From: a virus
Taxonomy: Duplodnaviria > Caudoviricetes
Reading direction: 5' to 3' (one strand)
Length of the DNA stretch: 61,313 bases
IMG/VR virus record: IMGVR_UViG_3300024431_000003
Span: 1 to 61,313 of that record
Position 1 is the stretch's first letter. Each line of letters begins with the position of its first letter. The notes below the pieces were generated by a model that saw nothing but the letters and a program-made list of their open reading frames with translations, had not been told where the DNA came from and ran no database searches. This document shows, in pieces, positions 32,126 through 48,015 of this stretch. The position numbers and the translations under genes are program-made.

Positions 32126-32761
32126 TCACGTCAGCCGGTCCCCCGGCACCACGTCTCTATCGTACGTCGCCCATTTCCGGTGAGGAATGAACGCATTATC
32201 TTTCGGCCAGAATCCCCAGTCCCTCTTCAGTGGTCCGGTCAGGATGATGGTCCGGAATGTATTCGCCGGCTTCAATACGAAGTGTCGGTGTGTCGCTCGC
32301 CGAAAGTGCGGCAGGAACGCGCGGACCTTGCGTATCCGTCTCCTCCAGTACGTCGGGTGATCTCCAGGTCGGCGCTGACGCCAGTCGTACCACGGAAACG
32401 GGCTCGGTATCTGTTCCTCCACCGTTTCATAGTACGTGGTGAACGGTATCGTGATGAACCACCACGGATGGTCATGCACTGCGCTGTCGTCGTCACCCTG
32501 ATAGAACGTGTGAAGCCTGATGTGGAACCACTTGAACCAGAACATCCGTCGGTCCAGGTAGAGACGGTAATACGTGTTCCCCGCTATCGTGTGCTTCACC
32601 ATGTACTCAGGGCTCGGTCGCTCCTGCATGTACTCGTTCCCCGATACCGGGAACCAGACCTGATCGTGCAAGAAGCCTATCTTCCTCTTGTACGTTCCCT
32701 TCGGCCAGTCACTGACGGTTTCAACGTGGCTCCTACTCTTCTCTGATAATAGTGCCATCAC
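32126..32761 (-). CDS. Cupin-fold (cysteine dioxygenase-like) protein
   Basis: RLHTFYQGDDD..HDHPW..YYE...HRHFV..TIILTGP..DWGF motifs. Confidence 0.65.
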   Translation of the reverse strand: MMALLSEKSRSHVETVSDWPKGTYKRKIGFLHDQVWFPVSGNEYMQERPSPEYMVKHTIAGNTYYRLYLDRRMFWFKWFHIRLHTFYQGDDDSAVHDHPWWFITIPFTTYYETVEEQIPSPFPWYDWRQRRPGDHPTYWRRRIRKVRAFLPHFRRATHRHFVLKPANTFRTIILTGPLKRDWGFWPKDNAFIPHRKWATYDRDVVPGDRLT

Positions 32762-33434
32762 GCCTCTCCAGTTCGTTCAGTTGTATCAGGTACTCTACCA
32801 TCCCCGTCACGTCCTTCGCGTTGATAAATGGTGTGACGTACCCGCTCCACTCATGTAAGTACACGTGAGACTTCACTACGATGCCATCGTTGTCGGCTAC
32901 CTCCACGTCGTATCCCTCGCGCTCATGGTTCTGCATGAACGTGATCTGGCAGTTGAGCCACTCATACTTCACAGAGCCTCGCTTGTCAGCCAGTCGCGCG
33001 TCTTCCTTCAGTGCTGCTGTGACGTGTTCCTCTTCATCGGCGTCATCAATGCCGTTCATTATCTCGTTGACGAATCCCGCTGTCCAGGGACGGAAGCATC
33101 GCATCTCTATGATGCTCGGGAACGTGCCGTTGAAGCAGATGCATCGGTCGTCAATGGTCAGCCACGCTGGAGGCTTCTGCGTCGGGAAGCCTATGACGTC
33201 CCAGTATTCAAAGGTATGATCACGCAGCCACGCTCGCATCGCATCAACGCCTCCGGGTTCCTTGCTCCGGCTGCTGTATATCACCGGATCGAAGTCCTCC
33301 ATCTCGTAGAGCAATCCCAGCCAATCTATCGCTCCCTTCACTGGTGGATCCGGGATGATGTCCGCTCCCTTCCATCCGCTGATGTAAGAGTGTATCACTC
33401 CGTCAAAGTCTATACAGATTATCTTCTTAGTCAT
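32733..33434 (-). CDS. HAD-superfamily phosphatase/nucleotidase with a C-terminal extension
   Basis: IDFDGVIH (motif I), YSSR and KPPAWLTIDDR. Confidence 0.8.
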   Translation of the reverse strand: MTKKIICIDFDGVIHSYISGWKGADIIPDPPVKGAIDWLGLLYEMEDFDPVIYSSRSKEPGGVDAMRAWLRDHTFEYWDVIGFPTQKPPAWLTIDDRCICFNGTFPSIIEMRCFRPWTAGFVNEIMNGIDDADEEEHVTAALKEDARLADKRGSVKYEWLNCQITFMQNHEREGYDVEVADNDGIVVKSHVYLHEWSGYVTPFINAKDVTGMVEYLIQLNELERRDGTIIREE

Positions 33435-33745
33435 GGTCTTCCTCCTCGTTTGATATCTACTTCAATTCTTTCTAGCGACACGGGAGACAGATCAAATGTT
33501 CTGTTCAAAACGTTCGCCAATGTTACGTCACGCGTCTGCATCATGCTCCGTGCGAGCGCTCTTGCCATCTGACAGCCGAGGTCCCTCGTGTGTTCCGTTG
33601 CTATTCCGTACGTCTTATACTTGTAGATCGTCGGATGCGCTATGCTCTGCAGTGCAACTCCATCTCCTCCAGGCAGTGCCGCGCTCACCGCGACAGCGAC
33701 CGCTCCTTGAATGAACCTCCTACGTGTCGTCATCTTCGTACTCAT
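33431..33745 (-). CDS. Tat-signal protein composed of major-capsid-like fragments
   Basis: TRRRFIQ twin-arginine signal; four segments match the MCP at 47101-48015. Confidence 0.65.
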   Translation of the reverse strand: MSTKMTTRRRFIQGAVAVAVSAALPGGDGVALQSIAHPTIYKYKTYGIATEHTRDLGCQMARALARSMMQTRDVTLANVLNRTFDLSPVSLERIEVDIKRGGRP

Positions 33746-33878
33746 CTATTGCCTTGTTCAAGAACACTCGTAGCATCATAACCAGTGCGCGAGCCAGTCG
33801 CTCTATTTCGCTGTCCGCTTCCCAGTCCAGGGAGTTCCTCGTTTCAATCAGCGCTTCTTTACTGATAATCTCTTCCAT
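33720..33878 (-). CDS. Small hypothetical protein
   Basis: GAGGAGG RBS; start overlaps the primase stop. Confidence 0.5.
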   Translation of the reverse strand: MEEIISKEALIETRNSLDWEADSEIERLARALVMMLRVFLNKAIDEYEDDDT

Positions 33879-35866
33879 CAGGTCTTCCTCCTCCTCGTTG
33901 CCTTGCCTATCGGCGTGAGTTTCTTTTCGTAGTTCGCTGCCCACTCACGGTTCCTTCCCACCCTCTCCTTCCAATACTCTATATTCTTTATCGCGAACAG
34001 CTTCACCTGTCTGCCGTCGTGCATCTTCACCGGACTACTGTTGCGCACGGCACCGAGCGTCGTCAACGCACCACTGAGCGTCACTCTTATGTTCCCACGC
34101 TTCAGGTCCTCCGGTATCCAGTGGAGCATCTGCTCGATGCTGAACACGTCACGCTTCAATGCTTCCTTCGCCAGACCTACATCACCAACGACGGTCGCTA
34201 TCGCCACGATCGGGTCAAGTAGCAGGTCAGAAACCCACTGCTGGAGGCTGGTCATTGCTGCGTCTTGCATCTGCTTCTTCTCTGTTGTTTCCGGAGCGGC
34301 TGCGCGCGGATTGAACTGGGAGCAGTCCACTGAGTTCACAAGGTAGTACATGAACGCGCTCGGTCCTCCTTCCTTCTTCCTCCAGGCGTCCAGATGGTTC
34401 CAGAACTTCATCGGCCGTTCCCTGTCCAGCTTGCCAACGAAGAACCGTCGGTCGTTCTGGTCTAGGATGATCGCGTCTGGCTTGTTACTGGTGAACATCA
34501 GGTTCGCGCAGTTCGGTAGCTTGAAGGTCGGCACGTACTTCTCGTTGATGGTGATGGTGTCACCCGTGATGATGTGCTTCAGCATTCCGCTCTCCGCCTT
34601 GCTGCGCATCTGCATGACCTCTTCCCCGAGGATGAACTGCTTGTTCCGCATCCATACGAAGCTGTCGTCATGCAGTTCCACCGATGTGATGACGTTGCTG
34701 TTCAACCCGTAGATGTCACGCATCACGTCACCGATGAAGGTCTTGCCGGTTCCCTGTTCAATGCTCCAGATGAGTACACTGCTGAACATCTTCACTCCCG
34801 GGTTCTGTATCGGGTATGCCAGCCACTGAAGCAGCCAATCCCAGTTGTCAATCGTCTTGATGACGTCCAGGAACTCTTTGCAGTTCCCTCGCTTCGGTTC
34901 AGCTCCCCATCCAGGCCAGTCGTTCAGCTCGCCGTTGATAAACTGCGCTTCGCCTGGAGCATAGGTCATGCGATCAACCTTCCGCATGTGAGGCCACTGA
35001 GTCCACTCGTCTATCGCGGCTATCTGCTTCCCGCTCTCGCTCAGTATCTTGATGTGACCGTAGTTACGCTTCAGTCTGCCGATGTCACCGTAGAGGATAC
35101 GATCGTACGTTGAATAGTATGTCTGCGTGTCCTTGATATATACAAGGTCATCGTTCAGGTTCGTCATCTGCGCACTGTTGTCCGCCTCATAGCACTCTAA
35201 CTTCTGGTATGCGTTCACTCCCCTCGCCACTAGGAAGTCATCTAACTTGCTCAGTCCCTCCGTCATCTGTAAGTAGCGGATGAACACTCGCGCTCCACGC
35301 TTCGTCAGCATCATTGTGAGCGCATCAAGTGCCTTCGCTACGTTGTCGTTCGTGTACATATCCCCATCGTAACAGATCTCAATCTCGCGGTCCTTCAGTT
35401 CAAACCAGTCCCAGTCCGGGATCACCTTCATATGCCACTTCTTCGCCGTGAACGACCAGACTCCACCGAGAGCGATGCACGGCAATCCCATGTTCGTCGC
35501 GCATGCTGCCTTCTTTTCGCCTTCAGTAATGATGATGCGAATGCTCGGGTCCGCGCATACCTTCTTCCAGTCAATGAGCGGAGGCAGATAGAGCCTCGGT
35601 ATCGTCTTCTCTTCCTGGATGTACTTCGGTTGATTGGTTTCCGTGATTGGAAAGAGCTTCCATCGCGTGTAGTTCAAAGGGTTTCCGGCCGGATCAAAGT
35701 ACGGTATCTCGTAGGAGACAGCGTCTTCAACTGCCGTTGCATCGTACGTCTGTGCCTTGGATAACATCTCGCCGTATCGCAGCTTTCGGACGGTCGTTGG
35801 TTTACCTAGTCCGCTGCGATCGAGATCGTCCTTGCGCAATACGCGCATGACCTCTTTCTGTGACAT
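33878..35866 (-). CDS. Primase-helicase (DUF3854/Toprim plus SF3/D5-like helicase)
   Basis: ITEGEKKA, CYDGD and KLDDFL; Walker A QGTGKT, LKHIITG..INEKY and TSN..DRRF. Confidence 0.9.
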   Translation of the reverse strand: MSQKEVMRVLRKDDLDRSGLGKPTTVRKLRYGEMLSKAQTYDATAVEDAVSYEIPYFDPAGNPLNYTRWKLFPITETNQPKYIQEEKTIPRLYLPPLIDWKKVCADPSIRIIITEGEKKAACATNMGLPCIALGGVWSFTAKKWHMKVIPDWDWFELKDREIEICYDGDMYTNDNVAKALDALTMMLTKRGARVFIRYLQMTEGLSKLDDFLVARGVNAYQKLECYEADNSAQMTNLNDDLVYIKDTQTYYSTYDRILYGDIGRLKRNYGHIKILSESGKQIAAIDEWTQWPHMRKVDRMTYAPGEAQFINGELNDWPGWGAEPKRGNCKEFLDVIKTIDNWDWLLQWLAYPIQNPGVKMFSSVLIWSIEQGTGKTFIGDVMRDIYGLNSNVITSVELHDDSFVWMRNKQFILGEEVMQMRSKAESGMLKHIITGDTITINEKYVPTFKLPNCANLMFTSNKPDAIILDQNDRRFFVGKLDRERPMKFWNHLDAWRKKEGGPSAFMYYLVNSVDCSQFNPRAAAPETTEKKQMQDAAMTSLQQWVSDLLLDPIVAIATVVGDVGLAKEALKRDVFSIEQMLHWIPEDLKRGNIRVTLSGALTTLGAVRNSSPVKMHDGRQVKLFAIKNIEYWKERVGRNREWAANYEKKLTPIGKATRRRKT

Positions 35867-35868
35867 GA

Positions 35869-36177
35869 CTAGGCTCTCTTCTTAGTTGCTATGCGCCTCT
35901 TCCGTGGTTTCTTCATGGTTCGCTCGGTGATGAACTCATCCATCCGGTTCCGTATGAGTTCCTGAACACTTACTCCATCGAACTCCGCTATCGCCTTCAG
36001 TATGAGTATGCTCCTCGCTTCGAGATACAATGGATACTGTGTCTTGGTGCGCAAGGGAACCGCTTCAGCTACGCGCAGAGCCTCGCGGAACTTTGGCTCG
36101 GCTGTCTTGAGCCGGTCTTTCTGCTCTTGCTCTCGTAGTTCTTCACGCCAGTTGTCACTCGCTCTTGCCTGTTTCAT
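35869..36177 (-). CDS. Ribbon-helix-helix (CopG/Arc-like) DNA-binding protein
   Basis: KTQYPLYL...LKAIAEFDGVSVQELIRNRMDEFI; GAGGAG RBS. Confidence 0.6.
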   Translation of the reverse strand: MKQARASDNWREELREQEQKDRLKTAEPKFREALRVAEAVPLRTKTQYPLYLEARSILILKAIAEFDGVSVQELIRNRMDEFITERTMKKPRKRRIATKKRA

Positions 36178-44157: not shown

Positions 44158-44355
44158 ATGCAGATTGAATTGGAACTCTACCTGAGGAAACTCAAGGATA
44201 TGCAAGTTGAGATGGCAGATGCCGCACTCCGACAGCCGAATGAGAAGTCTGAATTCGGATACGGACAGGCGTCAGGAAAGTATCAAGGCTTGTTACTCGC
44301 CGAGCAGTTGTTGATGAATGTGATTGAGGAAATAGCGAATGAACCAGACAAGTAA
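44158..44355 (+). CDS. Hypothetical protein
   Basis: FGYGQASGKYQGL motif, between portal and GroES. Confidence 0.7.
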   Translation: MQIELELYLRKLKDMQVEMADAALRQPNEKSEFGYGQASGKYQGLLLAEQLLMNVIEEIANEPDK

Positions 44356-44812
44356 TCTCTCACTGGCTGATGTCGGAGCGGAAGACCAGCATACGAAGAG
44401 GATATCTCTAGCGTATGAATCTATCGATCAAGCGTTCCCAGACGTTGATCCCGGCTTGAGGCCTTTCGGGTCCAAGGTACTGGTGCAGATCAGGACCCCT
44501 ATGAAGAGAACACGAGGCGGGATTGTAATTCCAGAAGAATCCCGCGATACAGAGTTATGGAACACTCAAGTATCCAAAGTCATAACGCTAGGACCAGTCG
44601 CGTTCCGCGATCGAGATACCCTGAAAGAGTGGCCCGAGGGTCAGTGGGTTCAACCTGGAGCCTTCGTTCGATGCCCGAAGTATGGCGGAGATCGTTGGGA
44701 GGTTCCAGTTCCTAATTCCCAAGATGCAGCGTTGTTCTGCTTGTTCAACGACCTGGAACTTGGTGGAGAAATTACAGGCGACCCGTTAGAGATGGTCGCC
44801 TTCTTGAAGTGA
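44339..44812 (+). CDS. GroES-like co-chaperonin
   Basis: RPFGSKVLV..TRGGIVIP..VITLGP..VQPG..KYGG..FND pattern. Confidence 0.85.
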   Translation: MNQTSNLSLADVGAEDQHTKRISLAYESIDQAFPDVDPGLRPFGSKVLVQIRTPMKRTRGGIVIPEESRDTELWNTQVSKVITLGPVAFRDRDTLKEWPEGQWVQPGAFVRCPKYGGDRWEVPVPNSQDAALFCLFNDLELGGEITGDPLEMVAFLK

Positions 44813-47100: not shown

Positions 47101-48015
47101 ATGGCTGTTCCAATGCGCAGCACTGACTTCAGGTCAGTAGTAGAGCCCATCTTGAACGAGGTTTTCGATGGCATCTACAATCAAAGAGCCGATGAATGGA
47201 AGGCATGCTTTGTGGAACGTCCGGGTATCCCCCGTTCGTACCATGAAGAGCCTGTCCTTTACGGGTTCGGGGCTGCTCCAGAGCTCCCCGATGGTCTGCC
47301 GGTAACTTATCAATCCGGTGGAGTGCTCTTCATCCAGCGTTATGTCTATCGAGTGTATGGACTCGCCTTCGCCTTGACGAAAGTCTTGGTGGAAGACGGT
47401 GATCATATCAAGATCGGCACGATCTACGCTGAGCATCTCGCTCAGTCCATGATCGAAACGAAGGAGACGTTGACCGCCAACATCTTCAATCGTGCCTTCA
47501 ATGGTGCGTTTGTCGGTGGCGACGGTGTCTCTCTAGTCAACGCTGCTCACCCGATCGCTAACGGAACGTTCAGTAACTTGCTCTCAACGTCTGCTGCTCT
47601 ATCGCAGACGTCCCTGGAGCAGATGCTGATTCAGGTCCGGAACGCGGTCGACAACAACGGTAAACGAATCCGGTTGACGCCGAAGAAGATTGTGGCTGGT
47701 CCCAGTCAGGTCTTCCAGGCTGAAGTTCTGCTGAAGAGCGTTCTTCGTGCCGGAACCGCGAACAACGACATCAACCCGGTCAAGTCCATGGGTCTGTTGA
47801 GTGACGGTCAGGCTAATCTTAGCCGGATCACCTCAACGACTGCATGGTGGATCGGTACTGATGCTCCTCGCGGTCTTCAGTTGCTCATGCGACGCAAGAT
47901 GGAGAAGTCAATGGAAGGCGACTTCGAAACTGATTCCATGCGTTACAAGGCGACGGAGCGGTATTGGCCGTCATGGACCGATCCTCGGACGGTCTTCGGT
48001 ACTCCGGGTCTGTAA
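47101..48015 (+). CDS. Major capsid protein (Mu gpT-like HK97 fold)
   Basis: GFGAAP, LAQSM..TKE..ANIFN, GGDG.SL..AHP, NNDINP and GDFETDSMRYKATERY..WTDPR. Confidence 0.9.
   Translation: MAVPMRSTDFRSVVEPILNEVFDGIYNQRADEWKACFVERPGIPRSYHEEPVLYGFGAAPELPDGLPVTYQSGGVLFIQRYVYRVYGLAFALTKVLVEDGDHIKIGTIYAEHLAQSMIETKETLTANIFNRAFNGAFVGGDGVSLVNAAHPIANGTFSNLLSTSAALSQTSLEQMLIQVRNAVDNNGKRIRLTPKKIVAGPSQVFQAEVLLKSVLRAGTANNDINPVKSMGLLSDGQANLSRITSTTAWWIGTDAPRGLQLLMRRKMEKSMEGDFETDSMRYKATERYWPSWTDPRTVFGTPGL

What the first reader, a model, noticed from the sequence alone, without database searches (positions are those of the whole stretch)
33431..33745. Tat-signal 'mini-capsid mosaic': a shuffled digest of the major capsid protein encoded in the replication arm
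Seen in sequence: after a twin-arginine signal (TRRRFIQGAVAVAVSAALP), almost all of the remaining ~80 aa consists of four segments matching the phage's own MCP (47101-48015). GGDGVALQSIAHP matches MCP 139-151 GGDGVSLVNAAHP (9/13 identical). YKYKTYGIA matches 81-89 YVYRVYGLA (5/9). ARALARSMMQTRDVTLANVLNRTF matches 110-133 AEHLAQSMIETKETLTANIFNRAF (11/24). LSPVSLERIEVDIK matches 167-180 LSQTSLEQMLIQVR (5/14). The order is permuted and the linkers are deleted, so this is not a simple truncated duplicate. The gene lies on the opposite strand, just downstream of primase. Established: several defence systems are triggered by capsid proteins (CapRel SJ46, Lit/Gol peptide, PifA). Inference: it could be a membrane-tethered or exported capsid decoy that titrates a capsid sensor, a dominant-negative inhibitor of competing phages' heads, or a membrane anchor that nucleates prohead assembly.
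Basis: partly seen in the sequence, partly recalled or inferred. Interest (0 to 1): 0.85.

Follow-up and report, generated by a model that had tools for sequence, protein, structure and literature searches.

The report
Tat-signal protein made of capsid motifs
A small phage gene encodes an export signal followed by a string of the most conserved pieces of the phage's major capsid protein in rearranged order; it belongs to a large, fast-changing, undescribed family that looks like a capsid mimic sent to the cell membrane.

Summary
ORF 33431-33745(-) is a real, tightly packed gene. It encodes a twin-arginine (Tat) signal that passes TIGR01409's cut-off, followed by pieces homologous to the Mu gpT-like major capsid protein (MCP, 47101-48015). 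Support: BLASTP E 1e-8, hhalign 98.4% / E 6.4e-15, and segment HMMs A 20.7 bits and C 43.9 bits. Segment A follows the long helix C in the MCP but precedes it here, so the order is permuted.

It is a family, not an oddity. A profile search gave 223 representatives at 50% clustering. Of the 150 listed, 129 are 160 aa or shorter, and 108 of those 129 have the twin-arginine motif. They carry MCP segments N, E, B, C, A, D, G1, F and H in many orders. Of 58 with two or more recognisable segments, 36 are out of MCP order.

A second Tat family carries A-E-D-N. dN/dS is 0.12-0.70. Between two related phages the passenger is swapped as a cassette between the signal and the stop codon. The minis resemble the MCP-family consensus more than their own MCP. 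None was found in cultured phages or prokaryote genomes.

Function is inferred: a Tat-targeted, mostly unfolded MCP-motif mimic that engages something that recognises MCP motifs. Structure and complex predictions gave nothing usable.

The parts
33431..33745 (-). The gene: 104-aa Tat-signal protein built of MCP-derived segments. An alternative start at 33733 gives 100 aa.
   Evidence: ORF. Sequence and overlaps: it overlaps the upstream ORF's end, and its stop overlaps the start of the next gene. Family of 30 close homologues; 223 representatives.
33671..33733 (-). Twin-arginine signal, residues 5-25: n-region, invariant Arg8, Arg9 and Phe11, hydrophobic stretch 14-24, Pro25.
   Evidence: TIGR01409 20.8 bits > 16.7; 22.3 bits in the six-frame search, the only hit in the window. 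Pfam TAT_signal 17.8 bits, below its cut-off. Invariant columns. AF2 helix 8-23.
33632..33670 (-). Segment A, residues 26-38. It is homologous to MCP 139-151, which in the MCP lies after the long helix.
   Evidence: BLASTP HSP2 11/20, E 6e-5. Segment HMM A 20.7 bits, E 4e-5 over 3,702 frames, with no E-segment hit there. 6 of 7 MCP-conserved columns are kept in the minis.
33599..33625 (-). Segment B, residues 41-49. Matches MCP 81-89, the strand region before the helix.
   Evidence: Lies inside BLASTP HSP1. Weak alone (2.4 bits), stronger in relatives (up to 20.3 bits). In strain variants this stretch and the linker after it are the most changed part.
33494..33565 (-). Segment C, residues 61-84. 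Homologous to MCP 110-133, the long helix (by recalled knowledge of the fold, the P-domain spine helix).
   Evidence: Segment HMM C 43.9 bits, E 2e-12. hhalign. Family-invariant residues 63, 64, 67, 68, 70, 71. 9 of 12 MCP-conserved columns are kept. AF2 helix 54-84.
33449..33490 (-). Segment D-like acidic C-terminal motif, residues 86-99. Weak match to MCP 167-180. The last codons also carry the ribosome-binding site of the next gene.
   Evidence: 2.2 bits alone. The same motif recurs at the C-termini of both Tat families, and the internal D segment scores 20-25 bits in L016, L009 and L024. RBS and overlap.
47101..48015 (+). Major capsid protein, 304 aa, Mu gpT-like: the family from which the segments derive.
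   Evidence: 80% identical to Caulobacter phage GB2A gp085c. All nine segment HMMs hit it in native order.
33878..35866 (-). Primase (DUF3854 + DUF5906), upstream in the same leftward operon.
33720..33944 (-). 74-aa acidic ORF between the primase and the mini; its end overlaps the mini's start.
   Evidence: No family hit.
32733..33434 (-). HAD-like gene directly downstream; its start overlaps the mini's stop codon.
   Evidence: (phrog_23773, phrog_1238).

Best explanation
The gene makes a small accessory protein with two modules. The first is a fixed N-terminal twin-arginine (Tat) signal. The second is an exchangeable passenger: a string of the most conserved motifs of the Mu gpT-like major capsid protein, here in the order A, B, C, D against the capsid's B, C, A, D.

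The passenger is probably not an autonomous domain. Apart from the long helix it is predicted disordered. It keeps the same residues that are invariant in the capsid protein. I therefore infer that it works as a molecular mimic of unassembled capsid protein: each motif reproduces a contact that the capsid protein normally makes.

The Tat signal then takes the mimic, and possibly what it has bound in the cytoplasm, to or across the inner membrane. The bound partner is unknown. My favoured candidate is a factor that recognises conserved capsid motifs: a host capsid-sensing defence protein, or an assembly factor or capsid protein of a rival phage.

Shown here: the gene, the signal model match, the homology, the permutation, the family, purifying selection and cassette-like turnover. 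Inferred: export, mimicry, and the identity of the partner.
For: - Homology to the MCP.
- Permutation: A scores 20.7 bits and C 43.9 bits with A upstream of C, while in MCPs A directly follows C.
- Order does not matter across the family: 36 of 58 Tat-bearing representatives with two or more recognised segments are out of MCP order. A second family carries A-E-D-N and variants.
- Same residues constrained: 15 of 19 MCP columns conserved at 90% or more in segments A and C carry the same residue in at least 70% of 30 minis.
- Tat module constant: invariant Arg8, Arg9 and Phe11 in 30/30; motif in 108/129 short representatives and 53/55 of the second family; TIGR01409 above cut-off.
- Not folded alone: AF2 pLDDT 56 with only two helices; Atlas model pLDDT 0.38.
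- Functional gene: dN/dS 0.12-0.70 in 11 pairs, and overlapping starts and stops within an operon.
- Conflict-type evolution: the passenger is swapped exactly between signal codon 16 and the stop codon, between two phages with identical MCPs. In strain variants the mini shows 29 substitutions plus 14 gap letters in 275 nt, against 1/224, 2/201 and 6/179 in neighbouring pieces.
- A Tat review states that small unfolded hydrophilic passengers are exported and cites partner co-export by 'hitchhiking' (PMC13673990, passages read).
Against: - No experiment or prediction shows export or any binding.
- The signal is below Pfam's cut-off. Two relatives tested fall just under TIGR01409's cut-off (13.2 and 15.6 bits).
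- The minis do not track their own MCP: helix identity is 12/30 to the cognate against 17/30 to other clades, and all four window-clade minis behave this way. This weakens any model needing exact mimicry of the phage's own capsid.
- A decoy that binds a capsid sensor might trigger it rather than block it.
- hhalign prefers a collinear alignment, placing residues 24-38 on the E-loop region, so the permutation rests on the segment HMMs and the second BLAST HSP.
- The residue-conservation count is made on alignments fitted to MCP models and leans towards agreement.
- Other stretches of the primase region are also variable (33/568 and 26/173).
- Genome position differs between clades, so timing of expression is not a shared clue.
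Confidence: 0.4

Rival explanations
1. Exaptation without mimicry. The capsid gene only supplied raw material. The protein now acts in the envelope like other small signal-bearing phage proteins: superinfection exclusion, or control of lysis such as an antiholin or outer-membrane disruptor. Its capsid ancestry would be irrelevant to its function.
For: It is a small, fast-evolving, signal-bearing accessory gene sitting in variable regions: between primase and HAD-like gene, between small and large terminase genes, or next to a large variable protein. The minis form their own lineage rather than following their cognate MCP. 45 of 108 Tat-bearing representatives keep only the amphipathic helix segment.
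Against: The residues kept are the MCP-invariant ones (15/19). Nine different MCP segments were recruited repeatedly in many combinations, which is hard to explain if capsid-like contacts do not matter. No similarity to any known exclusion or lysis family was found in Pfam, PHROGs or NCBIfam.
Confidence: 0.25
2. Assembly modulator. The fragment binds capsid protein subunits directly, by complementing or replacing P-domain elements. It would either poison head assembly of competing phages with consensus-type MCPs, or tether or nucleate the phage's own proheads at the membrane.
For: The helix segment is closer to MCPs of clades that lack minis (17/30 to the L018/L025 type) than to its own (12/30). 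Records of that clade carry no mini: G009 at 97% and G008 at 87% complete, and also the 37% and 65% complete G006 and G007. Capsid-protein homologues that redirect assembly exist in satellites: SaPIbov5 Ccm (PMC8569155; only the search listing with the start of the abstract was seen).
Against: Tat export would remove the protein from the cytoplasm, where heads assemble. Order-independent motif strings and predicted disorder do not suggest a lattice-compatible subunit. In the G002/G003 clade the minis resemble their own MCP about as well as others.
Confidence: 0.15
3. Tat jamming. A Tat signal fused to an unfoldable, partly hydrophobic fragment stalls in the translocon. This damages the membrane or blocks host Tat export, serving host takeover or the timing of lysis.
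For: [quoted passage not shown] The passenger is predicted mostly unfolded.
Against: This does not explain why MCP-invariant residues and many different MCP motifs are retained. Any unfoldable sequence would do.
Confidence: 0.08
4. Decaying gene fragment or chance ORF with no function.
For: Parts B and D are individually weak. One close relative (the G005 record) shows no ATG, GTG or TTG start in front of its signal.
Against: The family has 223 representatives. The signal motif is conserved. dN/dS is 0.12-0.70. Indels in variants are in frame. Gene packing is tight. Synonymous divergence from the MCP is old while protein motifs are kept.
Confidence: 0.02

Closest known systems
Twin-arginine (Tat) signal peptides of bacterial exported proteins (TIGR01409, Pfam PF10518)
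   Same: N-terminal basic region, twin arginine followed two residues later by Phe, a moderately hydrophobic stretch of about a dozen residues, and small residues before a possible cleavage site. Scores above the TIGR01409 cut-off.
   Different: It is carried by a roughly 100-aa phage protein whose passenger is not a cofactor enzyme or a folded domain, but a string of capsid motifs. It falls below Pfam's cut-off. Export was not tested.
Mu gpT-like HK97-fold major capsid proteins (Pfam PF10124)
   Same: Significant profile homology of segments A and C, and in relatives N, E, B, D, G1, F and H. The MCP's invariant residues are retained.
   Different: Only about 60 of some 300 residues are represented, the order is permuted and the loops are deleted. 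It cannot form the fold, carries an export signal, and evolves as a separate lineage.
SaPIbov5 Ccm, a satellite-encoded homologue of the helper phage capsid protein that redirects capsid assembly (PMC8569155; search listing only)
   Same: A mobile-element gene derived from a capsid protein and used as an accessory factor.
   Different: Per the start of the abstract seen in the listing, Ccm is a homologue of the helper's capsid protein that redirects capsid assembly; that it is full-length and co-assembles in the cytoplasm is recalled, not read here. This protein is a short, shuffled fragment with a Tat signal.
Capsid-derived triggers of abortive infection: T4 Gol peptide with Lit, and capsid protein with CapRel SJ46 (bioRxiv 10.1101/2022.05.30.493996 seen in listing only; Gol/Lit recalled)
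   Same: Short conserved capsid regions can be what another protein recognises.
   Different: Those are parts of the capsid protein itself and act against the phage. Here a separate phage gene presents such regions. No sensor is known for this MCP family.
Signal-bearing phage exclusion or lysis-control proteins: T4 Imm/Sp, TP-J34 Ltp (recalled), and T4 antiholin RI (named in the reference list of PMC13673990)
   Same: Small, signal-bearing, fast-evolving accessory proteins acting at the envelope.
   Different: No sequence relation was found. As far as I recall, none is built from capsid motifs or uses a Tat signal.

Membership tests
Tat signal peptide (TIGR01409 / PF10518) | Score above the curated model cut-off | tested here: met
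   TIGR01409: 20.8 bits vs 16.7, and 22.3 bits in the six-frame search. Pfam PF10518: 17.8 vs 22.7, not met. The two models disagree.
Tat signal peptide (TIGR01409 / PF10518) | Conserved twin arginine with Phe two residues later, followed by a hydrophobic stretch | tested here: met
   Arg8, Arg9 and Phe11 are invariant in 30/30. Ile12, Gly14, Ala15, Ala19, Val20, Ala22 and Pro25 are conserved at 90% or more. The motif is present in 108/129 and 53/55 relatives.
Tat signal peptide (TIGR01409 / PF10518) | Signal peptidase site, or stable signal-anchor | tested here: inconclusive
   Small residues at positions 21 and 23 fit the -3/-1 rule by eye. The second family has no clear site. No predictor was available.
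Tat signal peptide (TIGR01409 / PF10518) | Tat-dependent export | not testable with these tools
   Needs reporter fusions in wild-type and tat-mutant hosts. The phage itself encodes no TatA-type protein.
Mu gpT-like major capsid protein (PF10124, HK97 fold) | Significant profile similarity | tested here: met
   hhalign 98.4%, E 6.4e-15. The mini HMM hits MCPs at E 1.6e-15 to 1.1e-9.
Mu gpT-like major capsid protein (PF10124, HK97 fold) | Complete fold elements in native order (N-arm, E-loop, P-domain, A-domain) | tested here: not met
   Only segments A, B, C and D are present, in the order A-B-C-D against the native B-C-A-D. N, E, G1, F and H are absent. It is therefore not a capsid protein.
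Capsid-protein homologues that redirect assembly (Ccm type) | Full-length capsid fold able to co-assemble | tested here: not met
   104 aa. AF2 shows two helices and otherwise low confidence.
Known phage exclusion, lysis or anti-defence families | Match to a described family model | tested here: not met
   No PHROG. No Pfam hit beyond the signal. No NCBIfam hit beyond the signal. PADLOC was not searched.

The most novel reading that the evidence does not exclude
The protein is a 'hitchhiker trap'. An early-made string of invariant capsid motifs binds a cytoplasmic host immune sensor, or a rival phage's capsid or assembly protein, that recognises those motifs. Because it carries a Tat signal rather than a Sec signal, it drags the folded complex to the Tat translocon and out of the cytoplasm, or pins it at the membrane. 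The motif composition of each cassette would then record which capsid motifs the local adversaries recognise.
Probability: 0.12. Interest if true: 0.95.

Novelty: categorically new. Interest (0 to 1): 0.8.

Why it matters
If the reading holds, phages export or membrane-target mimics of their own structural protein. No such class of accessory protein turned up in the searches made here.

- **A way to find capsid-recognising factors.** The motif strings could be used to fish for whatever recognises conserved capsid motifs, such as bacterial immune sensors or rival-phage factors, in a phage group widespread in marine and sediment samples.
- **A case study in protein evolution.** Nine conserved motifs of one fold are recombined in many orders behind a fixed signal peptide. 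Whole passengers are exchanged as cassettes between close relatives.
- **A question for Tat biology.** Tat would have a natural class of small, apparently unfolded viral substrates.

Tried and rejected
- **AF2 of the MCP** with my 23-row alignment failed (pLDDT 35.9). I could not map the segments on a model. Calling C the spine helix rests on recalled knowledge of the HK97 fold, plus helix predictions.
- **AF2 of the mini** (30 rows) was of low confidence (56.1), so no fold search was made.
- **Complex prediction** of the MCP with mini residues 24-104 returned no verdict (score 0.00). This is neither support nor evidence against binding.
- **PDB profile search** with the MCP alignment found 0 sequences.
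- **ESM Atlas.** For the mini, the nearest clusters were Tat-signal N-terminal fragments of TldD/PmbA-type proteins at 0.90-0.91 with few shared features. This is a lead to the signal only. For representative P0098 there was no usable hit.
- **PHROGs** gave no family for the mini.
- **tblastn** of three family members against 50,697 phage records found only MCPs or weak unrelated hits, and no mini.
- **The pattern scan of prokaryote genomes** gave 1 relative among 43 pattern matches, covering only the helix, as a capsid gene would. The scan uses two peptide patterns, so divergent members could be missed.
- **Sequencing runs.** No RNA holder is listed. Two runs labelled metatranscriptomic are only guessed to be RNA, so nothing is claimed about expression.
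- **Promoter and terminator scans** were at chance level (6 found vs 4.0 expected).
- **Recent gene conversion from the phage's own MCP** was considered and rejected, on diverged codons and lower identity to the cognate MCP.
- **Segment A as really the E-loop** was considered, since hhalign's collinear alignment suggests it. I rejected it as less likely: the E model gives no hit there and the A model gives 20.7 bits, and relatives carry A and E side by side.
- **A lipoprotein signal** was considered and rejected, because there is no Cys near the end of the signal.
- **Closed or unseen sources.** Supplementary files of papers were not opened. The annotation tables of PMC11053796 might name the Riverwalk-cluster genes differently.
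- **Literature searches.** Searches found no description of Tat-signal capsid-fragment proteins. These are keyword searches of open-access text only.
Full report
**Observation.** The window is a complete 61.3-kb virus record (CheckV 100%). ORF 33431-33745 on the minus strand encodes 104 aa. It lies in a leftward operon: a 131-aa ORF, the primase (DUF3854 + DUF5906), a 74-aa acidic ORF, this gene, a HAD-like gene, then a gene matching a PHROG labelled cysteine dioxygenase. Its start overlaps the end of the 74-aa ORF. Its stop codon overlaps the start of the HAD-like gene, whose ribosome-binding site lies in the mini's last codons.

The MCP (47101-48015, 304 aa) is Mu gpT-like.

**Is it more than chance?** Yes.
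- BLASTP of the two proteins gives E 1e-8 (mini 24-85 vs MCP 62-134), with a second HSP at E 6e-5 (mini 19-38 vs MCP 132-151).
- Among 379 window ORFs of 50 aa or more, only this ORF matches the MCP (E 5.8e-6; next best 0.39).
- tblastn of the mini against 50,697 phage records returns MCP genes of other phages. One is the Alcaligenes phage gene annotated with a Mu GpT note (E 2e-3, 81% of the query). Another is a Caulobacter phage GB2A gene.
- An HMM of 30 close homologues hits full-length MCPs of about 300 aa at E 1.6e-15 to 1.1e-9.
- Profile-profile comparison gives 98.4%, E 6.4e-15.

**Permutation.** I cut the MCP alignment (23 sequences) into nine segments and built an HMM for each:

| Segment | MCP residues |
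|---|---|
| N | 4-36 |
| E | 44-78 |
| B | 79-101 |
| C | 104-135 |
| A | 136-153 |
| D | 160-188 |
| G1 | 189-235 |
| F | 236-268 |
| H | 269-304 |

Against 3,702 stop-to-stop frames of the window and 17 related loci, the window's mini scores A 20.7 bits (E 4e-5) at residues 25-39 and C 43.9 bits (E 2e-12) at residues 56-85. In MCPs the A stretch directly follows C, whereas here it precedes B and C.

hhalign prefers a collinear alignment that lays residues 24-38 on the E-loop region. Against that, the E model gives no hit there, and relatives carry A and E as separate neighbours. I therefore accept the permutation, with that caveat. B and D are weak in this protein (2.4 and 2.2 bits) but are validated through relatives.

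**A family with a motif grammar.** The word-index search gave 30 homologues of 73-117 aa. Arg8, Arg9, Phe11 and six helix residues are invariant among them.

The exhaustive profile search gave 223 representatives at E of 1e-3 or better, at 50% clustering. Of the 150 listed, 129 are 160 aa or shorter, and 108 of those 129 carry the twin-arginine motif in the first 45 residues. The 21 without it are mostly native-order pieces that look like truncated MCP calls.

Architectures among the 108 (segments of 5 bits or more):

| Architecture | Count |
|---|---|
| C only | 45 |
| A-C | 15 |
| B-C | 11 |
| A-B-C | 5 |
| E-C | 5 |
| A only | 4 |
| H-C | 3 |
| C-H | 2 |
| C-B | 2 |
| A-D-C | 2 |
| A-E-C | 2 |
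| Twelve singletons, including B-D-C-A | 12 |

Of the 58 with two or more recognised segments, 36 are out of MCP order.

Viral contigs of the G002/G003 clade carry a second Tat-signal gene about 4 kb away. Its passenger is A-E-D-N and variants such as E-A-N and A-D-E-N. That family has 55 clusters, 53 with the motif. Its N, E and D pieces match the cognate MCP at pairwise E values of 8e-6 to 7e-4.

So every conserved block of the capsid protein is used, in many orders, always behind a Tat signal. A few members also contain a motif shared with a 932-aa tail-fibre-like protein of a related contig.

**The signal.** TIGR01409 scores 20.8 bits against a cut-off of 16.7. In a six-frame search of the whole window this is the only hit (22.3 bits). 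Pfam's model stays below its cut-off. The two Tat families share the motif pattern but not the hydrophobic sequence, which is what one expects of a functional signal. The phage encodes no TatA-type protein.

**Evolution.**
- dN/dS for 11 pairs is 0.12-0.70; window vs L003 is 0.12 and window vs L004 is 0.43. This is purifying but relaxed selection.
- The window's mini is not a recent copy of its own MCP. Nucleotide identity is 0.41-0.50, and identical codons at identical residues are 8/25 and 1/11.
- Its helix segment is closer to other MCP clades (17/30) than to its own (12/30). The same holds for all four window-clade minis.
- Of 19 MCP columns conserved at 90% or more in A and C, 15 keep the same residue in at least 70% of minis. 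That alignment is fitted to MCP models, which favours agreement.
- Two records with identical 309-aa MCPs have different passengers: A-B-C in one and B-D-C-A in the other, which also has a possible F-like tail seen only by eye. Their DNA is 84% identical up to codon 16 of the signal, unalignable across the passenger (210 vs 339 nt), and alignable again right after the stop codon. This is a cassette exchange.
- In near-identical strains from other metagenomes, the mini shows 29 substitutions plus 14 gap letters in 275 nt, with indels in multiples of three. Neighbouring pieces show 6/179, 1/224, 2/201 and 7/336. Two primase pieces are also variable, at 33/568 and 26/173.

**Context and distribution.**
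- In the window and in L004/L005 the gene follows the primase.
- In eight loci of the G002/G003 clade it lies 2-3 nt upstream of the large terminase gene.
- In a third group it lies next to a large variable protein.
- Records of the L025-type MCP clade have no mini, including one that is 97% complete.
- No mini was found in cultured phages.
- The pattern scan of 185,579 prokaryote species genomes found none.
- Near-identical DNA occurs in at least six studies of marine, marine-sediment and subsurface metagenomes, some of which may be the source of this record.
- The MCP is 80% identical to that of the Caulobacter Riverwalk cluster. The primase is only 33% identical to its best match among cultured phages. 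The host is unknown.

**Structure.** AF2 of the mini gives pLDDT 56, with helices at 8-23 (the signal) and 54-84 (segment C). Segments A and B fall below 50. The MCP model failed, PDB has no sequence relative, and the complex job gave no verdict.

**Mechanism (inference).** Four facts constrain it:
1. The Tat signal is constant.
2. The passenger consists of capsid-invariant motifs whose order is free.
3. The passenger is predicted not to fold alone.
4. The passenger turns over like a conflict gene, while remaining close to the family consensus rather than to the phage's own MCP.

I read this as a mimic of unassembled capsid protein that engages a factor recognising those motifs. The use of Tat would then matter, because Tat accepts small unfolded hydrophilic passengers and the review's reference list cites co-translocation of a partner by a hitchhiker mechanism (PMC13673990, passages and reference list read). 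That would let the mimic first meet its partner in the cytoplasm.

Who the partner is stays open: a host sensor, a rival phage's capsid or assembly protein, or the phage's own head proteins. The rival explanations are pure exaptation into an envelope function, assembly modulation, and Tat jamming.

**Comparison and novelty.** It passes one of the two curated Tat-signal models. It fails the defining features of a capsid protein, namely a complete fold in native order. It is therefore capsid-derived, not a capsid protein.

The nearest known ideas differ in form: full-length capsid homologues of satellites (Ccm), capsid regions as triggers of abortive infection, and signal-bearing exclusion or antiholin proteins. 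Four keyword searches of open-access full text found no description of such proteins. I rate the architecture as categorically new, with the function unproven.

Noticed in passing
L002 3761-4675 (Caulobacter phage GB2A gp085c); window 47101-48015: The paper on the Riverwalk cluster says its major capsid gene had not been identified (PMC11053796, passage read). GB2A gp085c is 80% identical to the window's Mu gpT-like MCP, so it is very likely that cluster's capsid gene. A homing endonuclease gene lies next to it.
   Followed up: partly
L007 4917-5186 (+); weaker in L013 4226-4453 and L024 2530-2775: A third kind of small frame carries the capsid protein's C-terminal segment H (30.6 bits, E 4e-8 in L007). 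In L007 it is followed by a hydrophobic C-terminal stretch and has no Tat motif. The L013 and L024 frames look low-complexity and may not be genes.
   Followed up: partly
L004 8967-9317; proteins P0018, P0099, P0127, P0131: Some family members carry, between segments A and C, a motif shared with the middle of a 932-aa tail-fibre-like protein of a related contig (L028 16335-19133). The mosaics may therefore also draw on other virion proteins.
   Followed up: partly
L006, L007, L008, L010, L011, L012, L013, L014, L023, L024 (ends of the minis just upstream of the large terminase gene): A nearly identical C-terminal tail of about 17 residues ends ten frames that lie directly before the large terminase gene. 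In L014 it sits on a separate 74-aa frame. It may reflect a nucleotide-level signal in front of that gene rather than protein function.
   Followed up: no
L005 9977-10429 (record G005, MCP 94% identical to the window's): This close relative's mini has the Tat motif but no ATG, GTG or TTG between the preceding stop and the motif. It also lacks segment B and has a long extra C-terminal part.
   Followed up: partly
window 44339-44812: A GroES-like co-chaperonin gene (phrog_3188, E 5e-5) sits in the head module between the putative portal gene and the MCP. A related Alcaligenes phage has an annotated GroES gene near its MCP.
   Followed up: no
window 32126-32761 and 32733-33434: Downstream of the mini lie a HAD-like gene (phrog_23773; weaker hits to families labelled phosphoheptose isomerase and polynucleotide kinase) and a gene matching a PHROG labelled cysteine dioxygenase. 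These are auxiliary genes of unknown role.
   Followed up: no
window 32700-35900 in other metagenomes: Near-identical copies of this phage region occur in runs from at least six studies, sampled 2017-2025 from marine, sediment and subsurface sites. A strain variant differs mainly inside the mini and in two primase patches.
   Followed up: partly
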